DNA of 64,000 nucleotides from Clostridia bacterium (lineage in GTDB: Bacteria; Bacillota; Clostridia; TANB77; CAG-508): NCBI GenBank assembly GCA_017934475.1, contig JAGBJN010000006.1, positions 64,437-128,436 of the forward strand. The letters run 5' to 3'. Position 1 is the first letter of the stretch, and each line of letters begins with the position of its first letter. Shown one piece after another: positions 27,578-41,624 of this stretch. The notes beneath the pieces are model-generated. The model was given only the letters and a program-made list of their open reading frames with translations. It ran no database searches and was not told the origin of the DNA. A program made the translations under genes and the position numbers.

Positions 27578-28093
27578 GTGGATACAAGAATAGAACAATC
27601 AAAACAGGAAATAGCTGAAAGTTTAATTTATTTAATGAAAAAGAAAGATTTTGCTTCTATTACAAATAAAGATATTACTGATAAAGCAGGTCTTTCTCAT
27701 ATTACTATTTATCGTCATTTCAAAACTAAAGATGAAATTATTAAATATTATCTTGATGATATTACTGATAATTTTATAAGAACAAGTAAGATTTTATATG
27801 TTCCTAATGATTTTAAAGGATATATAATTAAACTATTTACTCATCTTGAAAACAAAAAGGATATAGGGATTTTATTATACAAATCAAATATGATTCATTA
27901 TTTAAAAGATGAATTTGATAGAATCTTTCTAGCCAAAGCAAATAATAGAAAAGAAGAATATCATTATGCTTTTATTTCTGGTGGATTATATAATCTTTAC
28001 TATTATTGGATTAAAAATAATTGCAAAGAAAACTCAACAGAATTAGCTAATATGTTTAATGAATTTTATATTTTAAAAGGAGATAGCAATTAA
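27578..28093 (+). CDS. TetR family transcriptional regulator
   Basis: HTH ITNKDITDKAGLSHITIYRHFKTKDEI. GTG start as given in the track. Confidence 0.8.
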   Translation: MDTRIEQSKQEIAESLIYLMKKKDFASITNKDITDKAGLSHITIYRHFKTKDEIIKYYLDDITDNFIRTSKILYVPNDFKGYIIKLFTHLENKKDIGILLYKSNMIHYLKDEFDRIFLAKANNRKEEYHYAFISGGLYNLYYYWIKNNCKENSTELANMFNEFYILKGDSN

Positions 28094-28142
28094 ACTATCT
28101 CCTAATTCTGTTTGTATGTAACATCAAGAGTTTATGAACAAC

Positions 28143-28697
28143 TTATAACTCTTTTATAACTTTACAAGGATTTCCAACTGCTACTACATTTGATGGAATA
28201 TCTTTTGTAACAACACTCCCTGCTCCTATTGTTACATTATCTCCAATAGTAACACCAGGTAATACTGTAACATTTCCACCAATCCAGACATTATTGCCAA
28301 CTTTTATAGGTTTAGCATATTCTAATCCTTTATTTCTTGTTTCGTAATCTAAAGGATGTCCTGCTGTATAAAAACTACAATTAGGTGCAATAAAAACATT
28401 GTCGCCAAACTCCACTTTTGCACCATCTAATATGATACAATTATGATTCATATAAAAGTTTTCTCCAACTGAAATATTATATCCATAATCACACCAAAAG
28501 TTTTGTTCTACTATAATTTGTTTCCCTGTTTTAGCAAATAAACTTTTAATAATCTTATCCTTACCCTCTATATCAGATGGTTTTAAATTATTGTATTCAT
28601 AGCAAATATCTTTTGCTTTATATCTATCATTTATTAACTCTTTATCATAGTTAGCATCATATAATTCTCCTGCTAACATTTTATCTTTTTCAGACAT
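28143..28697 (-). CDS. maa: maltose/galactoside O-acetyltransferase (hexapeptide-repeat)
   Basis: MLAGELY N-terminus and left-handed beta-helix hexapeptides (GNNVWIGGNVTVLPGVTIGDNVTIGAGSVV). Start moved to MSEKDK. Confidence 0.85.
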   Translation of the reverse strand: MSEKDKMLAGELYDANYDKELINDRYKAKDICYEYNNLKPSDIEGKDKIIKSLFAKTGKQIIVEQNFWCDYGYNISVGENFYMNHNCIILDGAKVEFGDNVFIAPNCSFYTAGHPLDYETRNKGLEYAKPIKVGNNVWIGGNVTVLPGVTIGDNVTIGAGSVVTKDIPSNVVAVGNPCKVIKEL

Positions 28698-28773
28698 ACT
28701 TACCTCCAACATATATGCATTAACAAGTTAACAATATTACTTATCTTGTTAACAAATTAGTTTTATTGCTTTA

Positions 28774-29154
28774 TTAGTAATATCTACATTTTTTACAAAC
28801 TTCAGCACTCTTTAATTTATATCCTTTATATTTATTTTTTAATGCTGTATAGTTTTTGCAGTCTTTCTTTAAAATGCAGCCACTTTGCATTATAAGACAG
28901 TCATTTATATATTCTATTAGTTCCATATTTTCATCAAACTCTTTATTGCAATTATGACATATATAACAACTATCTCTATCATCTCCAAATATGATTCCAA
29001 AAGAATCTATTTTAAGATTTTCATGCTTTACTATATCAACGAATTCTTTAGCCTTATTTCCAAAGAGTTCTCCTAATTTAACAGTTGAAACTTCATTATT
29101 ACAATAAGGGCATTTGTGATGTTTCCTTGCTCTTTCAATAGCTATATCTTTCAT
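28774..29154 (-). CDS. Cys-rich zinc-ribbon protein, unknown function (last gene of the R-M-linked module)
   Basis: CPYC at residues 15-18, CYICHNC at 63-69 and CKKC near the C-terminus; 126 aa. Confidence 0.6.
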   Translation of the reverse strand: MKDIAIERARKHHKCPYCNNEVSTVKLGELFGNKAKEFVDIVKHENLKIDSFGIIFGDDRDSCYICHNCNKEFDENMELIEYINDCLIMQSGCILKKDCKNYTALKNKYKGYKLKSAEVCKKCRYY

Positions 29155-29169
29155 TAAAATCCCTACTTT

Positions 29170-31116
29170 TTATATAAATAATTTTGAAATCAAGTTTAAT
29201 AACTGCGTTGTTAAATGCTTCATATCATCAACATCTATAACTCGATCATAAACTTCTTTTAATGCTTCATAGCATTCTGTATCCCCTTTTTCTTCTTCCA
29301 ATGCAACACCTATAATACTTATTCCCTCTTTTTCAATTTTTCTTGCTGTATTATGAGTGTCTTTTGTAGAAACAGGAGGACTATAATCATCATTGTCGTT
29401 TGCTGTATGACATGGATAACCATCTGAAATGCAAATAATTACTTTGTATTCTGCGTGAGAATGCTCTATTAAGTATTTTTTTGCCCACATTAAAGATAGA
29501 CCTTCTCTTGTTCCTTCATCTGCATCTAACAATAAAATATTGTACTTGTCATTTTTAGAATAATTAAAATCTACTAAAATTTTATGTTTTACTAATGGCT
29601 CATCAAATATAGCTCTATGTTCAACAATAGCATGTTCAATACCGTTTTTAGATAATACCTCGTGAAGTATTACTGAAGATTTAATTGCATTTTCGTTTTT
29701 AGCTCCTGCCATAGATCCTGATCCGTCTATTAAAAATAGAATTGCTATATCTGGTACATCTATTCCTTGAACTTTTCTATACCAATAGCGCTTTTTCAAG
29801 TCGCCTAATCTTTTAGATTCTATTCCACTTCCAAAGCTAAACTTATCTTCTTTTGAGTCAACATTTCCTTTTAGAAGTTGACTAAATTTAGCATTATAGG
29901 AATTTATATTAAGCTTATATCTATTGTAGATATTATCATAAGCTTTTTTCATATTTATATTTGGTTTAGGATATGTAACTTTTATTTTTATATCTTTGTG
30001 CATTGCACTAGCCTTTAAATCTCCGCCTGTATATTCCCAATGTTGAGTAGTTTTTGAAGCTTGTCTTATACTTTGTCGTTTATCTTCTTCAAATTTTTCT
30101 AATTCATAAATATACTGTTCTGAATAATCATCATCAATTTTATTTCCTTCTAAATCAGTAAATAATCTTCTTGTTATTACTGCTTTTCTTCCTTTAGATT
30201 CAAATTGATTTATAGACATATCCTTTCCAGAGTGAGTTTTTTCATCTCCTACTAAAACAGAAATGAATTTCTTTACATATTCGTATTTCTCAATGTCTTT
30301 ATCATTTATTTTAGGGATTAAAGGTTCTATAATGTCAAAAATTTTACTTGTATATTCGTATCTTTGGTCTGGATCTCCGCAAATACTTCCTTCAAGCCAT
30401 AGTTCTTTTGTCTTATCTACATATTCTTTTATATCTTCTGAAGGTTCTTCAAGTTTTACCATAGGATATAAAAGCATTGTAGTAAAATAATCAATTAGTT
30501 CCATTATTAAACTTATTTTTCTTTGTATTTTAAGTTCTTCTTCAGAAGGTTTTGTTTCTTGTTCTTCTTCTGGTTTTGTAAATTCTTCAAATTTTCTTTG
30601 TATTGTTCCTTTAGCAGGTGTAGTTGAAAATAACCTTGAAACTCTTCCAAAGGTTAAGAAAAGATTCATATTATCAAATTCACTAGCTCCTGCGGCTTCA
30701 ATAAAGCAATCTTCTATTACATTTGATATACTGCTTAATATCATTTGATTAAATTTATTATTCCCTCTAGGATCTTTTAATAAATCTGGAGGAAAGTTAG
30801 TATAGATTATATGTAATGCTTCATGTATGTTTTGCGCTCTAGTAATCATTTTTAAAGCTATAAATCGATCAACAGAAAAAGTTTGAGGAAGACCTAAAAA
30901 TTCTTCTGTGTTTTTTAATGCGATATAATCGCAAAATAATTCATCGTTTGCAGGATCTACAACTATATTTTTTCCATCAGTATAAGCTTGATTTTCATTT
31001 ATAAAAAACAACCTTAAATTTGGATTTTCTGAAAGCATTGAGGCAAAGTCTTCTTCAATTTTTCTATTATCTTCAGTTTGAAATATCTTTAAAATTTCTC
31101 TATCTTGCTTTTGCAT
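29170..31116 (-). CDS. vWA-domain protein with N-terminal HExxH (zincin-like) region
   Basis: MIDAS LIDGSGSM (DNA 29710-29727), ICISDGYP, HEALH at residues 98-102 (DNA 30811-30825), and an acidic linker. Confidence 0.75.
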   Translation of the reverse strand: MQKQDREILKIFQTEDNRKIEEDFASMLSENPNLRLFFINENQAYTDGKNIVVDPANDELFCDYIALKNTEEFLGLPQTFSVDRFIALKMITRAQNIHEALHIIYTNFPPDLLKDPRGNNKFNQMILSSISNVIEDCFIEAAGASEFDNMNLFLTFGRVSRLFSTTPAKGTIQRKFEEFTKPEEEQETKPSEEELKIQRKISLIMELIDYFTTMLLYPMVKLEEPSEDIKEYVDKTKELWLEGSICGDPDQRYEYTSKIFDIIEPLIPKINDKDIEKYEYVKKFISVLVGDEKTHSGKDMSINQFESKGRKAVITRRLFTDLEGNKIDDDYSEQYIYELEKFEEDKRQSIRQASKTTQHWEYTGGDLKASAMHKDIKIKVTYPKPNINMKKAYDNIYNRYKLNINSYNAKFSQLLKGNVDSKEDKFSFGSGIESKRLGDLKKRYWYRKVQGIDVPDIAILFLIDGSGSMAGAKNENAIKSSVILHEVLSKNGIEHAIVEHRAIFDEPLVKHKILVDFNYSKNDKYNILLLDADEGTREGLSLMWAKKYLIEHSHAEYKVIICISDGYPCHTANDNDDYSPPVSTKDTHNTARKIEKEGISIIGVALEEEKGDTECYEALKEVYDRVIDVDDMKHLTTQLLNLISKLFI

Positions 31117-31140
31117 AGAAGAACCATACCTCCTTTTAAA

Positions 31141-32694
31141 CTAATTCCATTTATATAATAATAAAAATCCTCTAATTACATTTTCAAGTGTTCTATCACA
31201 TTTTGCAATAGGTATAATTGTTTTTTCAGCAGCTTTTAAATAACCTTCATATTTAGCTTGTCTAGCCCAATTTTCAAGATTTCTAGGAGAAATAACTATA
31301 TCTAATTCTTCAGCCTCTATTTTATTTTTTAATTTATGATATACTCCTAAAATTTTTGTAACATATTCTTTGCATTCTGGAACTCTTGTTATTAGCATTT
31401 TCTTAATTGCTGCATCTGATAGTGAAGCAATTTCAACAATAGTATTAAATCTGTTATATAATGCTTGATTCAACTCTTTTGTTCCAAAGTATCCTAAATT
31501 CATAGTTGCAAAGAATCTAAAATTAGGATTTCTTCTAACTATTTCTCCGTTATCTAATCTAACAAATCCATTGTCATCTAATAATGAATTCAAGAAAGCT
31601 AAATATGCAGGTTTAGCAAAGTTTATTTCTTCAAATACTACTGCTCCCCCATCTCTTATTGCTTTTGTTACAAAGCTTTCTTTAAAGACTATCTGATCTC
31701 CTTCTGGAATAAATTTACCTAAAATAAATTCATCTAAATTTTCGCTACAATTTACTGTATCCATAATAGGAAGTCCAATATCTCTACAAATTAGCTTACA
31801 AGAAATTGTTTTACCAGTCCCAGCAGGACCATGAAGTAAAACAGTTTTTGAATCTCCATTTACTACTGCATTACATATTGGCTTTAATTGTTCTGGAAGT
31901 TCAAATTCTTCTCCTAAATTTGGTATTAGTTGTTTTTGTTCTTCTGTAAATACATTATCTTCAAATTTTGTAACTACTATATCTAATGTTTCTTGTAATT
32001 GCTCTTTGTTTTGTCTTATAACTCCGTAAACATCTTTATAAGAAACGAATTCTCTTAAGTCATAATTAAGAAGATCTTCATCAGTTGTAAAATTGTATTC
32101 TTCCATCTTATGCTCTTGATAGAAGTCTTCATGAATATTTACAAAAGTATCAGCAGTTGGATTTTCTATGTAATTAAAGACAACTCTATTAAATTCATCA
32201 TCGTTACTTGTATCTCTTGCAAGTAATGCAGCAAACGAAACAAAATACCAATAAATCATATCTATTAGTTCGCCGTCTTCGGGATATTCTTTACTTTCTG
32301 TTGGCAATATACTTTGATTTTCGTCATAGAAGGTTAGGTTTATTTCATTATTCTCTAATAATACAACAGCTTGATCTACTCTATTGTCAATTATTCCGTT
32401 ATCTTTCCAATCTTCTGGAAATTTAACTTTGAAATACAGTTTTGATTTATCACTATTTACTAAAATATCTCCAGAGATTCCATCTTCGTTTGAAATTAAG
32501 CTTCTTAATACTAGAGAGAATAAAGTTATCCCCTCTCCTATTGGCTGACAAAGTGTTGTTGTTCCTCTATAAGATTGATTATTTGGATGTACATAGTATT
32601 GTGTAGCATCAGACAAATGTCTGAATCCAAATCCTTTATATATTTCATCGCTATTTTCCCTTACAATTTTGTAAGAATCTTTAAATATATTCAT
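31141..32694 (-). CDS. MoxR/CobS/AAA_5-type AAA+ ATPase with a ~280-aa unique N-terminal domain
   Basis: Walker A LLHGPAGTGKT (DNA 31807-31830), Walker B-like AVVFEEINFAKP, FFATMN sensor. Start moved to MNIFKD (AGAGGTG RBS). Confidence 0.75.
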   Translation of the reverse strand: MNIFKDSYKIVRENSDEIYKGFGFRHLSDATQYYVHPNNQSYRGTTTLCQPIGEGITLFSLVLRSLISNEDGISGDILVNSDKSKLYFKVKFPEDWKDNGIIDNRVDQAVVLLENNEINLTFYDENQSILPTESKEYPEDGELIDMIYWYFVSFAALLARDTSNDDEFNRVVFNYIENPTADTFVNIHEDFYQEHKMEEYNFTTDEDLLNYDLREFVSYKDVYGVIRQNKEQLQETLDIVVTKFEDNVFTEEQKQLIPNLGEEFELPEQLKPICNAVVNGDSKTVLLHGPAGTGKTISCKLICRDIGLPIMDTVNCSENLDEFILGKFIPEGDQIVFKESFVTKAIRDGGAVVFEEINFAKPAYLAFLNSLLDDNGFVRLDNGEIVRRNPNFRFFATMNLGYFGTKELNQALYNRFNTIVEIASLSDAAIKKMLITRVPECKEYVTKILGVYHKLKNKIEAEELDIVISPRNLENWARQAKYEGYLKAAEKTIIPIAKCDRTLENVIRGFLLLYKWN

Positions 32695-32711
32695 AAATCC
32701 CACCTCTAAAT

Positions 32712-33425
32712 TTAATGTGATATTTTTAATCCTTTATTTTCATCTAAATCAAATCCTACTTGCCAGAAACAGCTGTCTAATATTTTCATTTGAGGATATT
32801 CCATTCCGTTTACAGTCATTTGACTTCTTGCATCTTCAAACTCTTTATAGTATTCATTATAAAAATCGACCAATTCTAGTATAGATTTTATATTAAAATT
32901 ACCAGAAGCAGCTTTCTCATTTCGTACTCCTGAAACAAAATATCTATCATAAGCAGGAACACAACCTAAAGTTCCCATTAAAACCTTTGTAACTAAAGTA
33001 TCAGATAATTCATTTTTAGGAATAGATTCTTTTACGCTTAATCTAATTTTATTATATACTTCTTTAATTCTACTTACTAAATCTTTTAATTTTTCTTGGT
33101 TTTCTATATTCTTATATTGATTTATTTCTATTCCCCATAATGAGTTATATTTATCTTCAAGTAATATTTTTATTACTGGTTTATGTACTTTATAATCTCT
33201 CTGTAATAAGAACGAAGAGCCTCTATACATTCCCCAACTCGCTAGATAAAAAGATAAATGCAAACATAAATAGTCTATAAATTCGTCATCTACAAAGCTT
33301 GAATTATGGGCATCATAAAATATTTTATAGCAATATTCCCATGATCTATATCTTCCATTTTCATCTTCTCTTAATTTATTATAAAATTTTAAACCTTGAT
33401 TTATTATTTCTTTAATATCACTCAT
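32712..33425 (-). CDS. 237-aa protein, unknown function (first gene after hsdR)
   Basis: Long ORF 20 nt after the hsdR stop. I recognise no motif. Conserved-looking core: RYRSWEYCY...FYLASWGMYRGSSFLL. Confidence 0.6.
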   Translation of the reverse strand: MSDIKEIINQGLKFYNKLREDENGRYRSWEYCYKIFYDAHNSSFVDDEFIDYLCLHLSFYLASWGMYRGSSFLLQRDYKVHKPVIKILLEDKYNSLWGIEINQYKNIENQEKLKDLVSRIKEVYNKIRLSVKESIPKNELSDTLVTKVLMGTLGCVPAYDRYFVSGVRNEKAASGNFNIKSILELVDFYNEYYKEFEDARSQMTVNGMEYPQMKILDSCFWQVGFDLDENKGLKISH

Positions 33426-33445: not shown

Positions 33446-36400
33446 TTAGTTATTATCATTAGGATTATAATCTTCATCTTCTTCAGCAACTTGTAATAAT
33501 TCATTATTATTATTTGCTAAATTATATAATTCTTCTTCATTTCTAAATCCATTAGTTTTTATGTATGTATGCTCTGTTTGAGTATCATCATCTCTTTTTT
33601 TACTTACTTCTATATTTTCTCCCATCAATTCAGCTTGTAATACAACTGTTTGAACTGCTTCATCTGCTTTTGTTGGTGGATAATGATATTTTCTTAATAA
33701 TCTCTTTATTTCTCTTCTCATGAAAGCTCTAGCTGATTCTTTCTTATCCCAATCAACAGTCCTATTCTTTCTAACTGTTTCAGTAAGTTCATGAGCTAAT
33801 TGTATTAAAACTTCGTCTTGCATTTCTTTTAATACATTTGGATCTTTAACAAGAGCATCATAGAAAGCATATTCATCGTCTGTTAATCCTTTTTCTTTTC
33901 CTTCATTTTTAGCATCTACAACTTCTTTTGAAAGATTTAATAATTCTTCAATAACTTCTGCACTTGTTATTAAACGATTATTATATTTTTTCATTATTTC
34001 AGCCATTTTTTGTGAGAATAATTCTGCTTTTACTAAATTAGTTCTTTTGAAAACTCTAATATTTCCATCGATAAGTCTTTTTAATAATTCAGCTGCAATA
34101 TTTTTATTTTTCGATTTCTTTATACTTTCAAGATATTCTTCTGAAAGTATAGAAATTTCTGGATTACTTCTATCTGCTGCTTTAAATATATCAATTATTC
34201 CATCCTCTTGAATAGCTTGTTCTAATACATTTAAGATTCTTTGATTTACTTCTGTTGTAGTTAAATGTCCTTTTCCTGTTATTTTATTAACGCCAACTTT
34301 TACGCCTTTAAAGAATTCAACTTCTAATTTTGTTTGTTCATCTAATATACTTCTTGCAAGTGTTTCAGCTTGAGATAAAGCTGTTGCTTCAGCGATAAAA
34401 TCTTTCTTTTCATCTTCGTCTTTAGAAAGTACATAGTTAATTCCATCAGCTAAAGTTCTTAATCTTAATTGATTTGAACTACTGAAGAAACCTTGATAAT
34501 CAAATCCATAGAAGAAATCTCTCATTACTTCTAGTTTCTCTCTAACTATTACATACGCTGCTGTAATATCTGGAACTTTATCTCTATCTCTATTTGTATA
34601 TTCATTTAAAGCGTTTCTTAAGTCTGCTCCTATACCTATATAATCAACAATAAGTCCTGCTTCTTTGTCTTTGTAAACTCTATTAACACGAGCTATTGCT
34701 TGCATTAAGTTATGACCTCTCATAGGCTTGTCTATGTACATTGTAGCAAGGTCTGGAACATCAAATCCAGTAAGCCACATATCAACAACAATAACAATTT
34801 TTAGCTTACTTTTTTCATCTTTAAATTCAGTTGCAAGGTCATCTCTATACTTTTTATTTCCAACTATTTCATGCCAATCAGTAGGATCATCATTATTATC
34901 TGTTAAAACAACTTTAATTTTATCATTCCATTCTGGTCTTTTTTCTATAATTTCTTTATATAAATCTATTGCTATTTTTCTAGTCATACAAACAATCATA
35001 GCTTTTCCATTTAGTATATCTTCTCTTTGCTCGTAATGTTCAATAATATCTTTAGATAACATTTCTAAACGATCTTGTGCGCCAATAACTGTTTCAAGTT
35101 TTGCAAGTTCTTCTTTAGATTTAGTTACAGTTTCAACATCAGCTTCGTCATTTTCAATTATGTAGTTATACTCGTCATCAATTTCTTTAAGAACATTTTC
35201 GTCAAGTTTTAATTTTGCAACTCTATTTTCATAATAAATAGGAACAGTAGCATTATCTAATACAGCTTGAGTCATATCATATACATCTATGTAATCTCCG
35301 AAAAGTATTCTTGTGTTTTTATCTGCATATTCTATTGGAGTTCCAGTAAAAGCTATGAAAGTAGCTTTAGGAAGACTATCTCTCATCTTTTTAGCATAGC
35401 CTGTTTGGAATTCTCCAGTTTTTCTATTAAATTTCTTCTCTGTACTATATTGACTTCTATGTGCTTCATCAACGATAAATATAATATTTTCACGATCAGA
35501 AATTATATCATCGCCTTCTTCAAATTTTTGTATAGTTGTAAATATAATTCCACCTGCATTTACGCTTAATAGCTCTTTTAATTTCTTTCTACTTGCAGCA
35601 TGTTGAGTTTTTTGAGGAAGTATTTCTCTATTTGTATTCGCAAATGTTTCATATAATTGGTTATCTAAATCGTTTCTGTCTGTTAGTACAACAATAGTAG
35701 GATTGTTTAAGTCTTGTATTTTAGAAATTTTTCCAGTATAAAATACCATTGCGAAACTTTTTCCAGAACCTTGAGTATGCCATACAACACCTGCTTTTCC
35801 AGTATGTTCATCTAAAGCTTTTAATGTGCTTTTTATTGATTTATCTACTGCAAAATATTGATGGTATCCTGCTAGTATCTTTATTCTTCCTTTTTCTTTA
35901 TTTTGAAATAATATAAAGTTTGTAATAATGTCAATTAGTCTATCTTTTCTGAAAACACCATTTAATAATACATCTATTTGATTTATATTATCTTCTGGCT
36001 TCTCCCCATCTTTAGATTTCCATGTCATAAATCTATTAAAGTCTGCTGTAATAGTTCCTATTCTTGCATTTATTCCATCACTTATTACGCTAAAAACATT
36101 GTAATAAAATAAGCTCTTAATGTCTTCTTGATAATTTTTTATTTGATTATATGCGTTTTCAATAGTTGTATCTTCATTTATTGCATTTTTAAGTTCAAAT
36201 ACAATTAGAGGGATTCCGTTTATAAATACAACAACATCAGGTCTTTTTTCTTTATATTCAATAACGGTGTATTGATTTAAGACTTGGAATAGGTTATTTT
36301 CTATATTATCTCTATCAATTAACTTTGCAACAAAAGTTTTATCTCCTTCAATAGGAACTTCAACTCCTGCATAAAACATGTGATAAAATTCGTAGTTTGC

Positions 36401-36622
36401 TTCTACAAGATCTACTGCATGAAAGTTTCTTATTTTTCTATATACTTCATCTGCAATATCTTCAGTTATTCCTTCATTTATTTTATATAAGGATTCATAA
36501 AATACATCTTTTAGTATTGCTTCTTTATAATCTCTTTCAACATCAGGTGCATACTGATATTCATAACCTAATTCCTTTAATTGTTCAATTATGGCTTGTT
36601 CTACATTATCCTCTCTGAACAT
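33446..36622 (-). CDS. hsdR: type I restriction enzyme, R (endonuclease/translocase) subunit
   Basis: N-terminal PD-(D/E)xK region (VVFINGIPLIVFELK), helicase motif I HTQGSGKS and motif II IVDEAHRSQ; 1058 aa. Confidence 0.95.
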   Translation of the reverse strand: MFREDNVEQAIIEQLKELGYEYQYAPDVERDYKEAILKDVFYESLYKINEGITEDIADEVYRKIRNFHAVDLVEANYEFYHMFYAGVEVPIEGDKTFVAKLIDRDNIENNLFQVLNQYTVIEYKEKRPDVVVFINGIPLIVFELKNAINEDTTIENAYNQIKNYQEDIKSLFYYNVFSVISDGINARIGTITADFNRFMTWKSKDGEKPEDNINQIDVLLNGVFRKDRLIDIITNFILFQNKEKGRIKILAGYHQYFAVDKSIKSTLKALDEHTGKAGVVWHTQGSGKSFAMVFYTGKISKIQDLNNPTIVVLTDRNDLDNQLYETFANTNREILPQKTQHAASRKKLKELLSVNAGGIIFTTIQKFEEGDDIISDRENIIFIVDEAHRSQYSTEKKFNRKTGEFQTGYAKKMRDSLPKATFIAFTGTPIEYADKNTRILFGDYIDVYDMTQAVLDNATVPIYYENRVAKLKLDENVLKEIDDEYNYIIENDEADVETVTKSKEELAKLETVIGAQDRLEMLSKDIIEHYEQREDILNGKAMIVCMTRKIAIDLYKEIIEKRPEWNDKIKVVLTDNNDDPTDWHEIVGNKKYRDDLATEFKDEKSKLKIVIVVDMWLTGFDVPDLATMYIDKPMRGHNLMQAIARVNRVYKDKEAGLIVDYIGIGADLRNALNEYTNRDRDKVPDITAAYVIVREKLEVMRDFFYGFDYQGFFSSSNQLRLRTLADGINYVLSKDEDEKKDFIAEATALSQAETLARSILDEQTKLEVEFFKGVKVGVNKITGKGHLTTTEVNQRILNVLEQAIQEDGIIDIFKAADRSNPEISILSEEYLESIKKSKNKNIAAELLKRLIDGNIRVFKRTNLVKAELFSQKMAEIMKKYNNRLITSAEVIEELLNLSKEVVDAKNEGKEKGLTDDEYAFYDALVKDPNVLKEMQDEVLIQLAHELTETVRKNRTVDWDKKESARAFMRREIKRLLRKYHYPPTKADEAVQTVVLQAELMGENIEVSKKRDDDTQTEHTYIKTNGFRNEEELYNLANNNNELLQVAEEDEDYNPNDNN

Positions 36623-36658
36623 TTTTAATTCCCCCTATCTTGTTTTGTTCCTTTGTGC

Positions 36659-36745
36659 TAACAAATAACAATTTGTATGACTAAATTTCAATTTTATCTA
36701 GGTCTATTTCTCCATTCATAAGTTTTGGTAGTAAAGTATCTCTGA
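36659..36745. repeat. 87-bp direct repeat, copy A (3' end of the hsdS cassette plus 22 nt of 3' flank)
   Basis: Identical to 38887-38973 except for one base (a/t at repeat position 76). Confidence 0.9.
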
Positions 36746-37274
36746 GCTTAATTAAATTTATATTTTCAGAATTATTATGTTGTATCTTTTTTAAAATATT
36801 TTTATATTTTAATTGCTGCTCAATACTAATAATTGGTAATCCCAGTGTATTAACAAAAGCTTTATCTGTATGAGGTATAGCCGAACCTGTATTTTTATTT
36901 TTTATAAGTTCTGAATATTTTTTTAGTATAAAAAATATATATTCTTTGGTATAGCTTTCGTTGATTATATCTATTTTAGCTAATGTTGAGCCAACAATAC
37001 CATAATCTGAAAAATATACTTCTCCACTGCTAGCCCCATCCATTACCATTAAAATATCTTTCTCTGAAATTATTGTTTTTGTTGGATTAGCGTATGTAAT
37101 TTCTTGATTATTCAAACAGGCTATTGTTAAATATTTGATATAATCTTTTTCTTCTTTATTACTAATATTTAATGGTTTTTTCCCTTTTGTAAATTTTATT
37201 ATGTTATTAAGTAATTCTATTTCTGCATTATTCTCAAAATCATTTTGTAATAAGCTATTTGCTATTTCGTACAA
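36681..37274 (-). CDS. half hsdS cassette: TRD2' + C-terminal conserved region (probably silent)
   Basis: It ends with LPKLMNGEIDLDKIEI, matching the full-length hsdS C-terminus (same last 16 aa). It has only a TTG start and no RBS, and an in-frame stop lies 6 codons upstream. Confidence 0.7.
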   Translation of the reverse strand: MYEIANSLLQNDFENNAEIELLNNIIKFTKGKKPLNISNKEEKDYIKYLTIACLNNQEITYANPTKTIISEKDILMVMDGASSGEVYFSDYGIVGSTLAKIDIINESYTKEYIFFILKKYSELIKNKNTGSAIPHTDKAFVNTLGLPIISIEQQLKYKNILKKIQHNNSENINLIKLRDTLLPKLMNGEIDLDKIEI

Positions 37275-37303
37275 ATTATTATTTATGTGCGTTTATTTGT
37301 AAA

Positions 37304-37837
37304 TTAAGCTACTTGCAAATTATTATTTGTATGAATATTTAAATCTATTTTTCTATCTAATATATTTAAGATATATGCAATCTTTCTTTGATTTTTCAAG
37401 TCTGGAATCATTATTTTTGTTTTTGAAAGTTCGTTAAAAGTTATTTGAGGAAATGTTCCAGATCTTGTTTCTGCTACATGTTGAAGGTAGTTTATTACAT
37501 TATCACTTTTTAATATTTGATATAAATAGTCATTATCTATATTTCCTTTATTTCTTAATACCATAAGTTTTGTACTAGCGATATAGTCATCGGAATCAAA
37601 ATTTATATATGCAAATCTTTTATTTTTTGGTCTTATTTCGCTATATAAAATATCATTCTTTTTAAATCTTTTTTTGAATTGCCCTTTCAAATTCTTATTA
37701 CTTACATACTCATGGTTTAAAACTTTTCCATTTTCTATATCAGAAGTGTTAATAAGTATAACTTCAGATTTATTTATTTTAGTTGTATCTGTTATACTTT
37801 CAACAAATTCTCCTAATTCTCTTTCATATAAGTTCAT
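37304..37837 (-). CDS. half hsdS: TRD1' + central conserved region, own RBS
   Basis: It ends with HTNNNL, the same central motif as full-length hsdS (KHTNNNLYKIL). GGTGG RBS, 10 nt after the recombinase stop. Confidence 0.7.
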   Translation of the reverse strand: MNLYERELGEFVESITDTTKINKSEVILINTSDIENGKVLNHEYVSNKNLKGQFKKRFKKNDILYSEIRPKNKRFAYINFDSDDYIASTKLMVLRNKGNIDNDYLYQILKSDNVINYLQHVAETRSGTFPQITFNELSKTKIMIPDLKNQRKIAYILNILDRKIDLNIHTNNNLQVA

Positions 37838-37847
37838 ATAATTCCAC

Positions 37848-38849
37848 CTATCCTATATATTTTCTGTGTGAATTTTTCACATTATTTTGATTAACCATAG
37901 CGTAATGCATTGTTGTTTCTATTTTTACATGTCCTAATAACTTCTGAACTTGTTCTATTGGCATTCCTTTATCTATTGCCATTGTAGCTAAAGTTCTCCT
38001 AAATTTATGAGGATGTACTTTATTTATATTTGTTTCAAATCCTAAATTTCTAACTATTCTCTCGACTCCAGATATTGAAAGTCTTTGATGAGGTTTATTC
38101 TTTGAAACAAATAAGGCATTATTATTATCTTTTCTTGATTCGAGATATTGCTTCGAATGTATTTTGGTTCTAGCATCAAAATATACCTCTCTTTGTTTAT
38201 TTCCTTTTCCTTGTACTATACAAGATCTATCTTCAAAGTTTATATCTTCTATATTTAAGTTTACAAGTTCTCCTACTCTTATTCCAGTTGAATATAACAG
38301 CTCAATCATTGCTAGATCACGAATAAACTTACATTCATCTCGCATAGTTTCTATGTTTTCATCAGAAAATGTTTCTTTCACTAAAGTTGCTGTTTTAACT
38401 CTATGAATTCTTCTAACTGGACTTTTTATAATATAATCTTCATCTTCTAACCATGAGAAGAAGCTTGAAAATATTCTTCTTAAATTGTCTATTGTTACGC
38501 TGCTACATTTGTTTAAATCTTTATAATCTGATAAATATTTCCTAATGTCTTCAGTTGTAATTATTTTTATAGGTTTATCAAGTTTTAATATTAGATTTTC
38601 AATATTTTCCCTATAATATTTTATTGTTCTTACAGAGCAACCTTCGACTTCTTTAGCTGATAAAAAGGAATTTATGTATTTTTCATTAGTGTTTTGTTCT
38701 TCTTTTTTCTTTATTTCATCAGTTAATACTGTTATTTCAATATTTTTAAACTGAATTATTAGTACATTTTTCAATAATTCTAGCTGATAATTAGTCAAAT
38801 TATTGGACATTTCATTTGTGATTGTTAAAATTACTTGTTCTTTTTCCAT
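37848..38849 (-). CDS. tyrosine site-specific recombinase (XerC/D-like) embedded between hsdS genes
   Basis: C-terminal catalytic pattern: GIRVGEL (Arg), HPHKFRRT (HxxR), LLGHVKIETTMHY (His, Tyr). Confidence 0.9.
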   Translation of the reverse strand: MEKEQVILTITNEMSNNLTNYQLELLKNVLIIQFKNIEITVLTDEIKKKEEQNTNEKYINSFLSAKEVEGCSVRTIKYYRENIENLILKLDKPIKIITTEDIRKYLSDYKDLNKCSSVTIDNLRRIFSSFFSWLEDEDYIIKSPVRRIHRVKTATLVKETFSDENIETMRDECKFIRDLAMIELLYSTGIRVGELVNLNIEDINFEDRSCIVQGKGNKQREVYFDARTKIHSKQYLESRKDNNNALFVSKNKPHQRLSISGVERIVRNLGFETNINKVHPHKFRRTLATMAIDKGMPIEQVQKLLGHVKIETTMHYAMVNQNNVKNSHRKYIG

Positions 38850-38886
38850 ATAATATTGCTCCTTTCAGCAATATTATACTTCGCTA

Positions 38887-38973
38887 TAACAAATAACAAT
38901 TTGTATGACTAAATTTCAATTTTATCTAGGTCTATTTCTCCATTCATAAGTTTTGGTAGTATAGTATCTCTGA
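38887..38973. repeat. 87-bp direct repeat, copy B
   Basis: See 36659-36745; same orientation. Confidence 0.9.
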
Positions 38974-40114
38974 TTTGTTCTAAATTCTCAATTTGCTTTG
39001 TTTTATTATATATTCTATCTATTATTGGTTTAATAATATCAGTAAAACTTTGCATTTCATTTTTAGTTGGAAGCTTCAATTTGAATTGTTTTAAATCAGC
39101 CATTCTTATACCTTTTTGAACGCTACCACTTGCCTTATTTACTGCATAATTTTGCATATTTTTATTCAAAAGTAATAAATATAAGAATTCCGATGAACAT
39201 TTTTCATTTGGTCTAATAGTAAATATAGATTCGCTGATATTCCAATTATCTGGAATATCTTTTATTAAATAAACTCTTCCTATTGTTCCTATTCCTGAAA
39301 AAAGTAAATCTCCTACTTTTAGATCTGATCTTTTATTTATTTTTAGTATTGCTTCGTCATCTACTTTATCGCATTTATCATTTAGAATAACATCATTATT
39401 TTGCATATTTTTTATGGTTACATAATAATTAGAGCCATGACCTAAAACAAAGTTTTTTCTTGGGTTAAGCCCTGTTGCAAATTTTGAAGTTATATCATCT
39501 AAAGTTACTTCTTCCCATAGGTCGTATCTTTCATTATTTAGATATTTTTCTTTAAATATATTGTCGAGTATTTTATACAAATTATTATTTGTATGCTTAT
39601 TTTGAGCTATTTTTTTTGTAATGCTCTCTAGTAGCATTACGATTTTGTCTTGGTATTCTCTATTTGGCAAATCAATCTCTAAATCTCCATACATTTTTGC
39701 ATTTATATTTCCTCTTGTACTTCCTGTTTGAATTTCTTTTACCCAATTTTTATATTTATTTGTCATCGTATAATATTTGATATATTTAGGGTTTACTTTT
39801 GATTCATCTAAACTGAATTTTATTAAGAATCCTGCATACACTAAATCTTTTATAGTTCCATCATAAAAGTATGTTTTTCCTGTACTGTTTCCAGTTCTTG
39901 CAAAACAAATATCATTTTCTTCAAGAAGATATTCTTTAGAATTTGGATCATTTACAGATTTCAATTCATTTTCGTTTATTGTGCCATCTTCAGAAATATC
40001 TGTTATTCTTAAATATTTATATAAATCCTTATTAAAATCAACTGCTGCTGCTCCAATTCCGTAATTACCTTGCCCTTTTGAAATATCTTTTAATTTAATT
40101 TTATTAAATTTCAT
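38909..40114 (-). CDS. hsdS: type I R-M specificity subunit, full length (two TRDs)
   Basis: 401 aa with central HTNNNLYKILD and C-terminal RDTILPKLMNGEIDL conserved regions. It overlaps hsdM by 11 nt. Confidence 0.9.
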   Translation of the reverse strand: MKFNKIKLKDISKGQGNYGIGAAAVDFNKDLYKYLRITDISEDGTINENELKSVNDPNSKEYLLEENDICFARTGNSTGKTYFYDGTIKDLVYAGFLIKFSLDESKVNPKYIKYYTMTNKYKNWVKEIQTGSTRGNINAKMYGDLEIDLPNREYQDKIVMLLESITKKIAQNKHTNNNLYKILDNIFKEKYLNNERYDLWEEVTLDDITSKFATGLNPRKNFVLGHGSNYYVTIKNMQNNDVILNDKCDKVDDEAILKINKRSDLKVGDLLFSGIGTIGRVYLIKDIPDNWNISESIFTIRPNEKCSSEFLYLLLLNKNMQNYAVNKASGSVQKGIRMADLKQFKLKLPTKNEMQSFTDIIKPIIDRIYNKTKQIENLEQIRDTILPKLMNGEIDLDKIEI

Positions 40115-41624
40115 ATCCTATCGCTCCTAACACTTTCTTTAACTCTATATTAAGAGCTTCTTCTTCTTTTAATTGTTCTGATAATTCTGCTGTAAGTTTT
40201 TGCATTTTTTCTTCAAAAGGAATTCCATCTCCTTCATCCTCTGGAGTTCCAACATATCTACCTGGAGTTAGAGCATAATCGTTTTCTTTTACTTCTTCAA
40301 TAGTTGCTGATTTGCAGAATCCTAATTCATCTTCATAATTTGATTCGTTTCTCCAATTATGATATGTTGTAGCTATTTTTGAAATATCTTCTTCAGTTAA
40401 TTCTCTTACTTTTCTGTCAATCATTGAACCTAAATTTCTAGCATCTATAAATAATACTTTGTTTCTTGTCTTTTCATCTCTGTTTCTCCTCATAATCCAA
40501 AGAGAACAAGGAATTCCAGTAGCGTAGAATAATTGACTAGGCATAGCAACTATACATTCAACTACTCTACCTTCTATCATATTCTTTCTTATTTCGCCTT
40601 CTCCGCTTGAATCACTTGCCAATGCTCCATTAGCTAATACTGTTCCTGCAACTCCGTTTTCTGGGTTTAAATGATGTATCATGTGTTGAAGCCATGCATA
40701 ATTTGCGTTTCCTACTGGAGGAATTCCATATTTCCATCTAACATCATCTCTTAATTTATCTCCGCCCCAATCTGAAATGTTAAAAGGTGGATTTGCTAAT
40801 ATAAAATTAGCTTTAAGTGATTTATGTAGGTCATTATGAAATGTGTCAGCATTTCTATCTCCTAAATTTCCTTCTATTTGTCTAATAGCTAGGTTCATTT
40901 TAGCTAGTTTCCATGTTGTAGGATTTAACTCTTGACCATATACAGAAACTTCTCTTGAATTTCCTTGATGTTCTTTTACAAATTTATATGATTGTACGAA
41001 CATTCCTCCAGATCCACAACAAGGATCATAAACGATTCCTTTATATGGTTCTATCATTGAAACTAAAGTTCTAACTATGCAAGAAGGTGTATAGAATTCT
41101 CCTCCATTCTTTCCTTCAGCTGAAGCAAATTTACTTAAAAAATATTCATATACTCTTCCTAACATATCTACTTCTTTAGCTCTATCTGTTCCAATCTCTA
41201 AATTAGTAAACAGTGTAACAAGTTCTCCTAATCTTGTTTTATCTATTTCTGGTCTTGAATAGTTTTTATTTAATACATTTTTTAATCTAGGATTTTCTTT
41301 TTCAATTAAATCCATAGCCTTATCAATTACTTGTCCTATTTCTGGACTATTTGTATATTTTACTATTTCTTCCCATCTTGCTTCTTTAGGAATCCAGAAA
41401 ACATTTTCAGAAAGATATTCATCCTTATCTTCTGAATCTGCATATTCGTCTTGAGCTATTTGTTGTTGTCTTACTTCAAATGCATCAGAAACATATTTTA
41501 AGAATATCAAACCTAAAGCAACATGTTTGTACTCTGAAGAATCCATACTTCCTCTTAATTTATCTGCTGCAAGCCATAGCTTGTCTTCACATCCTAACAT
41601 TGTACTTGATTCTTTCTTTGCCAT
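40104..41624 (-). CDS. hsdM: type I R-M N6-adenine DNA methyltransferase subunit
   Basis: Motif I VYDPCCGSGGM, motif IV ILANPPFN and the N-terminal HsdM helix bundle (LWLAADKLRG). Confidence 0.95.
   Translation of the reverse strand: MAKKESSTMLGCEDKLWLAADKLRGSMDSSEYKHVALGLIFLKYVSDAFEVRQQQIAQDEYADSEDKDEYLSENVFWIPKEARWEEIVKYTNSPEIGQVIDKAMDLIEKENPRLKNVLNKNYSRPEIDKTRLGELVTLFTNLEIGTDRAKEVDMLGRVYEYFLSKFASAEGKNGGEFYTPSCIVRTLVSMIEPYKGIVYDPCCGSGGMFVQSYKFVKEHQGNSREVSVYGQELNPTTWKLAKMNLAIRQIEGNLGDRNADTFHNDLHKSLKANFILANPPFNISDWGGDKLRDDVRWKYGIPPVGNANYAWLQHMIHHLNPENGVAGTVLANGALASDSSGEGEIRKNMIEGRVVECIVAMPSQLFYATGIPCSLWIMRRNRDEKTRNKVLFIDARNLGSMIDRKVRELTEEDISKIATTYHNWRNESNYEDELGFCKSATIEEVKENDYALTPGRYVGTPEDEGDGIPFEEKMQKLTAELSEQLKEEEALNIELKKVLGAIGYEI

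What the first reader, a model, noticed from the sequence alone, without database searches (positions are those of the whole stretch)
28774..33425. Four-gene MoxR-type AAA+ / HExxH-vWA / Zn-ribbon module appended to a type I R-M operon: candidate uncharacterised defence system
Four co-directional ORFs follow directly after the hsdR stop (33446), with gaps of about 20, 17, 24 and 15 nt and no terminator hairpin.

(1) A 237-aa protein with no motif I can name.
(2) A 517-aa protein whose C-terminal half is a MoxR/CobS/AAA_5-type ATPase (GPAGTGKT, VVFEEIN, FFATMN) behind a ~280-aa unique N-domain.
(3) A 648-aa protein with a C-terminal vWA domain (MIDAS DGSGSM) and an N-terminal HEALH.
(4) A 126-aa Cys-rich Zn-ribbon protein.

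MoxR-type ATPases and vWA proteins are established functional partners (CobS/CobT, NorQ/NorD, RavA/ViaA), and MoxR-vWA pairs have been proposed computationally as NTP-dependent conflict systems. I know of no experimentally characterised anti-phage system with this four-gene composition. The tight packing behind hsdR, inside an island next to an ICE, is classic guilt by association for defence.
Basis: partly seen in the sequence, partly recalled or inferred. Interest (0 to 1): 0.85.

Follow-up and report, generated by a model that had tools for sequence, protein, structure and literature searches.

The report
Mobile AAA+ ATPase / protease-vWA gene pair
Behind a type I restriction operon lies a mobile two-gene cassette, not the four-gene module reported: a CobS/midasin-like ATPase plus a CobT-like protein that joins an intact zinc-protease motif to a vWA domain, which sits beside restriction genes in some genomes, is a plausible but untested defence or proteolysis system, and has a gene-pair type already described in phages.

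Summary
The four ORFs, their motifs and the tight spacing are real. They are not a four-gene unit.

- **Conserved unit.** Only the ATPase (B, 31141-32694) and the HExxH-vWA protein (C, 29170-31116) travel together. They are adjacent in about 70 of 80 loci from different species. Nucleotide similarity to relatives starts at the B start codon and stops at the C stop codon.
- **The other two ORFs.** The 237-aa protein belongs to a large independent family of stand-alone genes. The Zn-ribbon ORF is strain-specific and is missing even from a 96%-identical relative.
- **What B-C is.** It is a cellular branch of the CobS/CobT-like pair. B is an AAA_5 motor closest to midasin, CobS, NorQ and CbbQ. C has the architecture of CobT and phage "CobT-like" proteins, with HExxH, a downstream Glu and the MIDAS motif almost always kept.
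- **Third gene.** A Sel1-repeat gene is often inserted between B and C.
- **Context.** Flanks are highly variable. Type I R-M or GmrSD genes lie next to the pair in several clades, but in only about 10-15% of species-level loci.
- **Negative searches.** There is no PADLOC match, and no family member in 2.9 million viral contigs.

Best reading: an ATP-driven, MIDAS-targeted protease cassette, possibly defensive. It is a new variant of a known kind.

The parts
31141..32694 (-). Gene B: 517-aa AAA+ ATPase of the AAA_5 / CobS-midasin class, with a conserved N-terminal domain of about 265 aa.
   Evidence: Pfam AAA_5 at 1.5e-18 and phrog_249 (phage CobS-like) at 7e-37. The profile against PDB sequences hits midasin at 1.6e-57, CobS at 5e-15, then NorQ and CbbQ. 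Foldseek hits CbbQ 6l1q at 3.6e-12 and NorQ. Homologues are about 60% identical over the full length in Clostridia, Synergistaceae, Treponema and a Methanomassiliicoccaceae archaeon.
31903..32694 (-). N-terminal domain of B, residues 1-264. Function unknown. It contains an almost invariant stretch (residues about 22-54, GFGF.H.SDATQYYVHPNNQ...GTTTLCQPIGE) that the model leaves disordered.
   Evidence: Invariant columns in alignment A4. pLDDT is below 50 for residues 23-47 while the flanking parts are confident. By analogy only: the small N-domain of CobS binds the N-domain of CobT (bioRxiv 10.64898/2026.07.21.739949).
31807..31830 (-). Walker A motif of B (GPAGTGKT).
   Evidence: Translation. 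G289, P290, G292, T293, G294, K295 and T296 are invariant in A4.
31621..31641 (-). Walker B region of B (VVFEEIN).
   Evidence: Translation. F354, E355 and E356 are invariant in A4.
29170..31116 (-). Gene C: 648-aa CobT-like protein with an N-terminal HExxH domain, a helical linker and a C-terminal vWA/MIDAS domain.
   Evidence: AlphaFold model with mean pLDDT 85.7. The vWA part matches NorD in NorQD complexes at 8e-12. Full-length matches to phage CobT-like proteins in BFVD reach 1e-17. Homologues are 42-50% identical over 100% of the length across phyla.
30811..30825 (-). HEALH, the putative zinc-binding catalytic motif of C (residues 98-102).
   Evidence: H98, E99 and H102 are invariant in 73 and in 47 aligned sequences. 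An N-terminal HExxH is kept in 87 of 96 full-length 50%-cluster representatives.
30697..30714 (-). EDCFIE (residues 135-140), on the helix after the HExxH helix. It is the candidate third zinc ligand, as in gluzincins.
   Evidence: E135, D136 and E140 are invariant. They lie in predicted helix 121-146. Their assignment as a zinc ligand is inferred.
29713..29727 (-). MIDAS motif DGSGS of the vWA domain (residues 464-468), completed by D565.
   Evidence: D464, S466, S468 and D565 are invariant. DxSxS is kept in 95 of 96 full-length representatives.

Best explanation
**What it is.** The functional unit is a mobile two-gene cassette, B plus C. In many genomes a Sel1-repeat gene is inserted between them.

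**How it most likely works.**
- B forms a MoxR/CobS-type AAA+ ring.
- C docks on that ring through its vWA domain and linker, as NorD does on NorQ and CobT does on CobS.
- The MIDAS site of C captures an acidic residue of a target protein.
- ATP hydrolysis by B remodels the target or delivers it to C's N-terminal M48-like zinc protease, which cleaves it.
- The cassette acts as an accessory conflict (defence) module. It is carried in variable islands and on conjugative-element cargo, often next to type I R-M and GmrSD restriction genes.
- The target is unknown. It could be an invader protein or a host protein, the latter giving abortive infection.

**Shown.** The domain identities, the conservation of the motifs, the two-gene linkage, the cassette boundaries, the patchy distribution and the variable context.

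**Inferred.** Complex formation, protease activity, the nature of the target and the defence role.

The 237-aa gene and the Zn-ribbon gene are neighbours, not components.
For: 1. **Linkage.** B and C are adjacent and co-directional in about 70 of 80 loci from different GTDB species.
2. **Cassette boundaries.** blastn similarity to ten relatives spans 29170 to about 32700 only.
3. **Catalytic and binding motifs are under selection.** Walker A and B, HExxH, E135/D136/E140 and the MIDAS residues are invariant. 87 of 96 distant full-length representatives keep HExxH and 95 of 96 keep DxSxS.
4. **Structural precedent for the motor-adaptor pair.** Foldseek matches B to NorQ and CbbQ, and C to NorD within solved NorQD complexes. 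B hits CobS and C hits CobT by sequence profile. The N-domain of true CobT has a peptidase M48C-like fold.
5. **Conflict-type context in separate clades.**
   - The window: hsdMSR - A - B - C on the cargo side of a conjugative element.
   - L093: hsdR-hsdM-hsdS-GmrSD-B-C.
   - L088: Eco57I, HATPase_c_3, HNH, GmrSD, B-Sel1-C, HNH, two Dcm genes.
   - L091: two GmrSD genes, then B-x-Sel1-C.
   - L096: B-Sel1-C-hsdR fragment-recombinase.
   - L003 and L071: GmrSD-B-C.
6. **Patchy distribution suggesting horizontal transfer.** The pair occurs in gut, rumen and termite anaerobes of several phyla and one archaeon, with B about 60% identical throughout.
7. **No conserved metabolic partner.** No cobalamin or denitrification genes appear in the annotated contexts.
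Against: - There is no experimental evidence, and no model in PADLOC-DB 2.0.
- Most neighbours in the 76 species-level loci are not recognisable defence genes. They include NUDIX, acetyltransferases, ABC transporters and oxidoreductases.
- Only 6 of 52 loci of at least 9 kb hold type I R-M or GmrSD by a BLAST panel. My rough expectation of about 3% for a random 20-kb stretch is an estimate, not a measured background.
- One locus (L089) is flanked by housekeeping genes such as tyrS, rho and mutS.
- Both proteins are unusually well conserved for an immune sensor.
- The zincin fold of C's N-domain was not tested on its own. The whole-protein Foldseek search was dominated by the vWA domain, and a sequence profile of residues 1-330 found nothing in the PDB.
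- Related pairs (CobST, NorQD, CbbQO) are cofactor or enzyme-maturation machines, not immune systems.
Confidence: 0.45

Rival explanations
1. B-C is a maturation or cofactor-insertion chaperone for a host enzyme. It would work like CobST (cobalt chelatase), NorQD (iron insertion into NO reductase) or CbbQO (Rubisco activase). The HExxH site would serve metal handling or processing of the client protein, with no role in conflict.
For: The closest solved relatives are exactly these machines: CobS, CobT, NorQ, NorD and CbbQ. Both proteins are highly conserved across phyla. Many loci have metabolic neighbours. One locus has housekeeping flanks.
Against: No client gene is conserved next to the pair; neighbour families number 126 and 207 in the two sets of 150 and 140 neighbours. 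B scores 48 bits against the CobS equivalog cut-off of 558. No CobN, nor or cbb genes appear in the annotated contexts. The precise two-gene cassette boundaries and the sporadic distribution fit an accessory gene pair, not a pathway component.
Confidence: 0.2
2. B-C serves the mobile element that carries it, or general stress proteolysis. Examples would be processing or removal of host or element proteins during transfer, or regulated degradation of damaged proteins. In that case its position beside restriction genes only reflects shared residence in cargo regions.
For: In the window the pair lies beside conjugation genes. Other loci carry recombinases, integrases, a reverse transcriptase or FtsK/TrwB-like ATPases nearby. 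Phages carry a homologous pair with the same architecture, for which a role in virion assembly or cobalamin supply has been proposed.
Against: No member of this family was found in 2.9 million viral contigs, and none in the phage collection. In the plasmid collection the best hit is a 29%-identical protein on an Alkaliphilus replicon. Most loci show no conjugation or phage genes next to the pair.
Confidence: 0.15
3. One reading: all four genes (the 237-aa protein, the ATPase, HExxH-vWA and the Zn-ribbon protein) form one defence system coupled to the type I R-M operon.
For: The genes are tightly packed and co-directional with RBS-like spacers, and no terminator lies between hsdM and the Zn-ribbon gene. 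The same order hsdR-A-B-C recurs in L001 and in contigs of the same strain.
Against: A and D do not accompany B-C in any other species. D is missing from the 96%-identical L001, and its exact sequence occurs only in same-strain contigs. A is a separate family with thousands of members. It occurs alone at a prophage end, beside cas9 and near IS elements.
Confidence: 0.03

Closest known systems
Viral cobST-like pair: a MoxR-type AAA+ ATPase plus a metallopeptidase-vWA protein, found in jumbo phages, cyanophages and archaeal tailed viruses (PMC7824862, PMC8651126)
   Same: The two-gene arrangement is the same. The protein architecture is the same: phage proteins of 600-700 aa have HExxH at residues about 80-100 and a vWA domain from about residue 460, against 98 and about 455 in C. 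There are full-length Foldseek matches. B matches phrog_249 at 7e-37.
   Different: Sequence identity is only 23-33% for most hits and is confined to the vWA domain. No member of the window's family occurs in viral contigs. B carries about 200 extra N-terminal residues compared with phage CobS. The cellular pair sits in variable islands, often next to restriction genes. The functions proposed for the phage pair (virion assembly, cobalamin supply) are themselves untested.
Aerobic cobaltochelatase CobS/CobT (PDB 9uj*/9uk*; bioRxiv 10.64898/2026.07.21.739949)
   Same: An AAA_5 motor is paired with a protein of about 640 aa made of an N-domain, a linker and a vWA/MIDAS domain. The CobT N-domain has a peptidase M48C-like fold. 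Sequence profiles hit CobS at 5e-15 and CobT at 5e-5.
   Different: B is far below the CobS equivalog cut-off (48 against 558 bits). No CobN or cobalamin genes are nearby. The hosts are anaerobes. C keeps an intact, strongly conserved HExxH...E set, which points to real protease activity.
NorQ/NorD and CbbQ/CbbO, MoxR-vWA remodelling pairs (PDB 9qh4-9qhg, 6l1q)
   Same: These are the best structural matches for B's AAA+ module and C's vWA domain. They are solved examples of one vWA adaptor docked on an AAA+ hexamer.
   Different: NorD and CbbO have no HExxH protease domain. Those pairs are always encoded with their client enzyme, whereas no conserved client is found here.
Ternary vWA-MoxR-VMAP / iSTAND conflict systems (Kaur et al. 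2020, PMC7159879; PMC12839542)
   Same: A MoxR-class ATPase is paired with a vWA protein that can carry a peptidase effector. The systems are predicted to act in counter-invader conflict. Sel1 repeats are seen in some iSTAND systems.
   Different: No VMAP or iSTAND third component is present. Those systems are concentrated in multicellular actinobacteria and cyanobacteria, and a metallopeptidase is rare among their effectors. Here the system is binary, or ternary with a soluble Sel1-repeat protein, and occurs in gut anaerobes. The AAA+ module belongs to the CobS/midasin branch.

Membership tests
AAA_5 (MoxR / CobS / midasin class) AAA+ ATPase | Pfam AAA_5 match above the curated cut-off, with Walker A, Walker B and sensor-1 motifs | tested here: met
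   67.5 bits against a cut-off of 22. GPAGTGKT, VVFEEIN and ATMN are invariant. Foldseek hits CbbQ and NorQ, and the profile hits midasin and CobS.
vWA domain with a functional MIDAS site | vWA fold plus DxSxS...T...D metal-site residues | tested here: met
   The fold matches NorD at 8e-12, and also integrin I-domains. D464, S466, S468 and D565 are invariant; the middle position is T or N. The Pfam VWA and CobT_C scores are below the cut-offs.
Zincin (gluzincin, M48-like) metallopeptidase | HExxH on an active-site helix, a third zinc ligand (Glu) on the following helix, and a small beta-sheet before them | tested here: inconclusive
   HExxH and E135/D136/E140 are invariant. The predicted secondary structure (strands 35-38 and 50-53, helices 84-105 and 121-146) fits. 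No fold search of the domain alone was possible. The sequence profile of residues 1-330 found nothing in the PDB, and Pfam has no peptidase hit. The M48C likeness rests on true CobT.
Cobaltochelatase CobS/CobT (true members) | Scores above the CobS equivalog cut-off, and a CobN or cobalamin pathway context | tested here: not met
   TIGR01650 gives 48.4 bits against a cut-off of 558.55. No CobN or cobalamin genes appear in the annotated contexts or among the common neighbour families.
Viral cobST-like pair (MoxR plus metallopeptidase-vWA) | An adjacent AAA_5 gene and a protein of about 650 aa with an N-terminal HExxH and a C-terminal vWA domain | tested here: met
   The architecture coincides with that of the phage proteins. 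Full-length structural matches exist. phrog_249 scores 7e-37.
Viral cobST-like pair (MoxR plus metallopeptidase-vWA) | Encoded in a virus genome | tested here: not met
   No family member is found in IMG/VR. The phage collection gives only two weak vWA-only hits. The loci lack phage genes.
Ternary vWA-MoxR conflict systems (VMAP / iSTAND) | A third component with a VMAP or inactive STAND module next to the MoxR and vWA genes | tested here: not met
   A, D and the inserted genes have no such matches. The inserted genes are Sel1-repeat proteins or unknowns.
Any named anti-phage system in PADLOC-DB 2.0 | A significant match of the components to system models | tested here: not met
   A, C and D have no hits. 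B has only P-loop-level matches to IetA, at 2e-5 over about 60 residues. Newer DefenseFinder or PADLOC releases were not available.
   Only B and C co-occur. The similarity boundaries exclude D everywhere. They include A and hsdR only in the same-species locus L001.

The most novel reading that the evidence does not exclude
The B-C pair, with an optional Sel1-repeat adaptor, is a new proteolytic immune system of anaerobic gut bacteria and archaea. A CobS/midasin-like AAA+ motor would feed a MIDAS-captured invader or host protein into an M48-like zinc protease. The widespread phage 'cobST' genes would then be its evolutionary source, or a viral counterpart used in the same conflict, not cobalamin genes.
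Probability: 0.3. Interest if true: 0.75.

Novelty: new variant of a known kind. Interest (0 to 1): 0.55.

Why it matters
MoxR-vWA pairs are among the most widespread ATPase-adaptor pairs. Several have been predicted to act in conflict systems, but I found no report of a binary protease-vWA form tested experimentally.

This family is compact and sharply bounded: 3.55 kb, two genes, and about 156 clusters at 50% identity. It has three obvious point mutants: the Walker A Lys, the HExxH Glu and the MIDAS Asp. Whether it protects against phages or plasmids is therefore directly testable.

A positive result would add a proteolytic AAA+/vWA mechanism to the list of known immune systems. It would also bear on the long-unclear role of the 'cobS/cobT' genes that are core to many phages.

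A negative result would still define a new client-less relative of the CobST, NorQD and CbbQO remodelling machines.

Tried and rejected
- **PADLOC, NCBIfam, PHROGs and Pfam on all four proteins.** No named defence system matched. A and D had no meaningful family.
- **Four-gene co-occurrence.** Rejected.
- **Zn-ribbon partner.** I looked for any small Cys-rich ORF after C in other loci. Only L055 has one, so it is not a conserved partner.
- **Close relatives on phages or plasmids and in IMG/VR.** None found; only distant vWA matches.
- **Identity of C's N-domain.** A sequence profile of residues 1-330 against the PDB gave nothing. The whole-protein Foldseek search was dominated by the vWA domain.
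- **The ~236-aa gene that flanks C in Treponema loci.** No Pfam or PDB match.
- **The 237-aa protein against the PDB.** Nothing.
- **Literature.** I searched for an experimentally tested AAA+/vWA/metalloprotease defence system and found none.
- **Defence enrichment.** It could only be estimated roughly. The aggregated family scans give counts for the commonest families, not per-protein tables. The BLAST panel is insensitive. No background set of random loci was available.
Full report
**1.

On the - strand, hsdR (33446-36622) is followed by four ORFs:
- A, 32712-33425, 237 aa.
- B, 31141-32694, 517 aa from the ATG that all homologues use. The ORF lister extends it to a GTG at 32703.
- C, 29170-31116, 648 aa.
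- D, 28774-29154, 126 aa.

The spacers are 20, 17, 24 and 15 nt, and each holds a purine-rich, RBS-like run. The consensus scan finds no terminator-like site on the - strand between 42253 and 27500. The best promoter-like site lies upstream of hsdM, at 42193-42165.

The upstream genes are a type I R-M locus: hsdM, a full hsdS, a tyrosine recombinase, two hsdS half-genes and hsdR. Beyond 43.7 kb lie conjugation genes: CHAP, sortase, a VirB4-like ATPase, a coupling protein, a relaxase and Toprim/DUF3991.

**2. The unit is two genes, not four**

A scan of one genome per GTDB species, using an alignment of C homologues, returned 80 loci. They come from Clostridia, Erysipelotrichaceae, Negativicutes, Treponema and other spirochaetes, Desulfovibrionaceae and Succinivibrio.

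tblastn with the window's proteins gave these results:
- B lies next to C, on the same strand, in about 70 of the 80 loci. The remainder are mostly loci cut at a contig end.
- A was found only in L001, the same species, and as a fragment in L074.
- D was found in no locus.

At the nucleotide level, similarity between the window and ten relatives runs from 29170 (the C stop) to about 32700 (the B start) and no further. L001 is 96% identical and shares C, B, A, hsdR and part of hsdS, but its similarity stops at the C stop, so it lacks D. D's exact sequence occurs only in contigs of the same strain. Among the other loci, only one (L055) has any small Cys-rich ORF after C.

A is a member of a separate, much larger family: 6637 hits, about 234-237 aa, with no Pfam domain. 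Its members stand alone in unrelated places:
- after the lysin and recombinases at the end of a Streptococcus suis prophage;
- beside cas9 in an island;
- near IS elements in Clostridium algifaecis.

A and D are therefore neighbours of the cassette, not components.

**3. What B and C are**

*B.* Residues about 265-517 form an AAA_5 module (Pfam 1.5e-18).
- A profile of 50 homologues hits midasin AAA modules (1.6e-57), CobS (5e-15), NorQ and CbbQ among solved structures.
- The model (mean pLDDT 77.5) matches CbbQ and NorQ by Foldseek.
- The roughly 265-residue N-domain has no match.
- It is nevertheless conserved across the whole family. A nearly invariant segment (residues about 22-54) is left disordered in the monomer model, which suggests a partner-binding element.

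*C.* The model is confident (mean pLDDT 85.7).
- The C-terminal 190 residues are a vWA domain, most similar to NorD in NorQD complexes (8e-12). Its MIDAS residues D464, S466, S468 and D565 are invariant.
- In the N-terminal part, H98-E99-x-x-H102 on one helix and E135/D136/E140 on the next helix are invariant in 73 sequences.
- Against predicted viral structures, C aligns over its full length with phage 'CobT-like' proteins.
- In 34 viral contigs that carry such proteins, the ORFs are 600-700 aa. Most have HExxH at residues about 80-100 and a vWA domain starting near residue 460, the same layout as C. Several have a B-like ATPase gene nearby.
- A 2026 preprint reports that the N-domain of true CobT has a peptidase M48C-like fold and binds a small N-domain of CobS.

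C is therefore a CobT-architecture protein in which the zincin site is intact. Across the wider family, an exhaustive HMMER search of 1.84 billion representatives found 156 with E ≤ 1e-30 and 1442 with E ≤ 1e-10. Of 96 full-length representatives, 87 keep the N-terminal HExxH and 95 keep DxSxS. That argues that both proteolysis and MIDAS binding matter.

**4. Third genes**

In 17 of the 80 loci, and in L088, L091 and L096, one to four Sel1-repeat genes sit between B and C (Pfam Sel1 1.8e-28).

In Treponema loci, an unknown gene of about 236 aa takes that place and is often repeated after C. Two loci have an unknown gene of about 145 aa there instead. The window has none of these.

**5. Context**

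The flanks are extremely variable. The 290 nearest neighbours in 76 species-level loci fall into hundreds of Pfam families, and no partner is conserved.

Recognisable conflict genes do recur:

| Locus | Gene order |
|---|---|
| L093 | hsdR-hsdM-hsdS-GmrSD-B-C |
| L088 | Eco57I, HATPase_c_3, HNH, GmrSD, B-Sel1-C, HNH, two Dcm |
| L091 | two GmrSD genes, then B-x-Sel1-C |
| L096 | B-Sel1-C-hsdR fragment-recombinase |
| L003, L071 | GmrSD-B-C |
| L094 | a reverse transcriptase, a DUF87 ATPase and an AAA_21 ATPase around B-C |

These examples come from clades that share roughly 45-88% identity with the window's C.

The association is nonetheless a minority pattern:
- In the aggregated scans, GmrSD_N matched 3 neighbours, ResIII 5 and SWI2_SNF2 2. 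These sit among many metabolic families such as NUDIX, acetyltransferases, ABC transporters and dehydrogenases.
- A BLAST panel found type I R-M or GmrSD within 10 kb in 6 of 52 loci of at least 9 kb.
- L089 has housekeeping flanks.

I estimate a several-fold enrichment over a rough 3% expectation. That expectation is my own approximation, not a measured background.

The family is absent from 2.9 million viral contigs and from the phage collection. The plasmid collection holds only a 29%-identical relative.

**6. Mechanism**

By analogy with the solved NorQD and CobST assemblies, the most likely arrangement is as follows:
- B forms a hexameric motor.
- One C docks on it through its vWA domain and linker.
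- The MIDAS site captures a target.
- The intact M48-like site cleaves that target.

Sel1-repeat proteins would act as optional adaptors.

Three observations favour an accessory conflict role over a housekeeping one: the island and conjugative-element cargo location, the precise cassette boundaries, and the patchy cross-phylum distribution. This remains inference, and I put it at about 0.45.

The main rival is a client-specific maturation chaperone of the CobST/NorQD/CbbQO kind (0.2). It is weakened by the lack of any conserved client gene nearby and by the CobS equivalog score of 48 against a cut-off of 558 bits. A role serving the mobile element, or general proteolysis, is possible (0.15). 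The four-gene reading is essentially excluded (0.03).

**7. Comparison with what is known**

The gene-pair type is not new.
- Iyer et al. noted a MoxR ATPase plus metallopeptidase-vWA pair in group 2.2 jumbo phages and proposed a role in virion assembly.
- Kaur et al. defined ternary vWA-MoxR conflict systems with VMAP or iSTAND components, in which metallopeptidase effectors are rare.

The family here differs from all of these. It is cellular, it is binary or joined by a Sel1-repeat gene, it lacks VMAP and iSTAND, it belongs to the CobS/midasin branch, and it carries a conserved extra N-domain on the ATPase. I found no experimental test of any such pair in defence.

I therefore rate it a new variant of a known kind and of moderate interest. 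It is a well-delimited and easily testable candidate, but the evidence for defence is circumstantial and the four-gene claim was wrong.

Noticed in passing
window 32712-33425 (- strand); L081, L083, L085: The 237-aa protein belongs to a large family (6637 hits) of proteins of about 234-237 aa with no Pfam, NCBIfam, PADLOC or PDB match. Its members occur alone after hsdR (here), at the end of a Streptococcus suis prophage after the lysin and recombinases, directly upstream of cas9, and near IS elements. That pattern is typical of single-gene accessory or defence-related cargo, and the family deserves its own study.
   Followed up: partly
window 36600-40200: The type I R-M locus has a full hsdS gene (38909-40114), a tyrosine recombinase (37848-38849) and two hsdS half-genes (37304-37837, 36681-37274). 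A 100-nt repeat, 93% identical, links the 3' end of the full hsdS (38887-38986) to the last half-gene (36659-36758). The repeat is direct, not inverted, so any recombinase-driven switching of specificity would work by exchange or deletion, not by simple inversion.
   Followed up: partly
window 43773-63933: A set of conjugative-element genes lies on the - strand: a CHAP-domain protein, sortase, a VirB4-like ATPase, a VirD4-type coupling protein, a MobA/VirD2 relaxase, Toprim/DUF3991, RadC and a 954-aa SpaA-repeat surface protein. The R-M locus and the B-C cassette lie directly downstream, so they may be cargo of this element. Its ends were not mapped.
   Followed up: partly
L045, L047-L049, L052-L054, L073 (Treponema and related loci): An unknown protein of about 236 aa (starting MKLYVLRWNP...) is encoded between B and C and often again after C. 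It takes the place held by Sel1-repeat genes in Clostridia. It has no Pfam or PDB match.
   Followed up: partly
window 32554-32628 (B residues 23-47): The most conserved stretch of the ATPase N-domain (GFGF.H.SDATQYYVHPNNQ...GTTT) is the only part of the model with pLDDT below 50. An invariant segment that is predicted to be disordered suggests a peptide that folds only on binding a partner.
   Followed up: no
P0187 (726 aa) and L055 (ORF after C): One B homologue is fused to a Cys_rich_CPCC domain (PF14206), and in L055 a small CxxC-rich ORF follows C. These are the only hints of a zinc-ribbon partner outside the window, and neither resembles the window's 126-aa ORF by BLAST.
   Followed up: no
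window 28143-28712 and 27578-28093: Directly after the Zn-ribbon ORF come a maltose/galactoside-type O-acetyltransferase (Mac plus hexapeptide repeats) and a divergent TetR regulator. A hairpin at 28078-28103 lies between the convergent gene ends and is the first terminator-like structure downstream of the long co-directional gene run.
   Followed up: no
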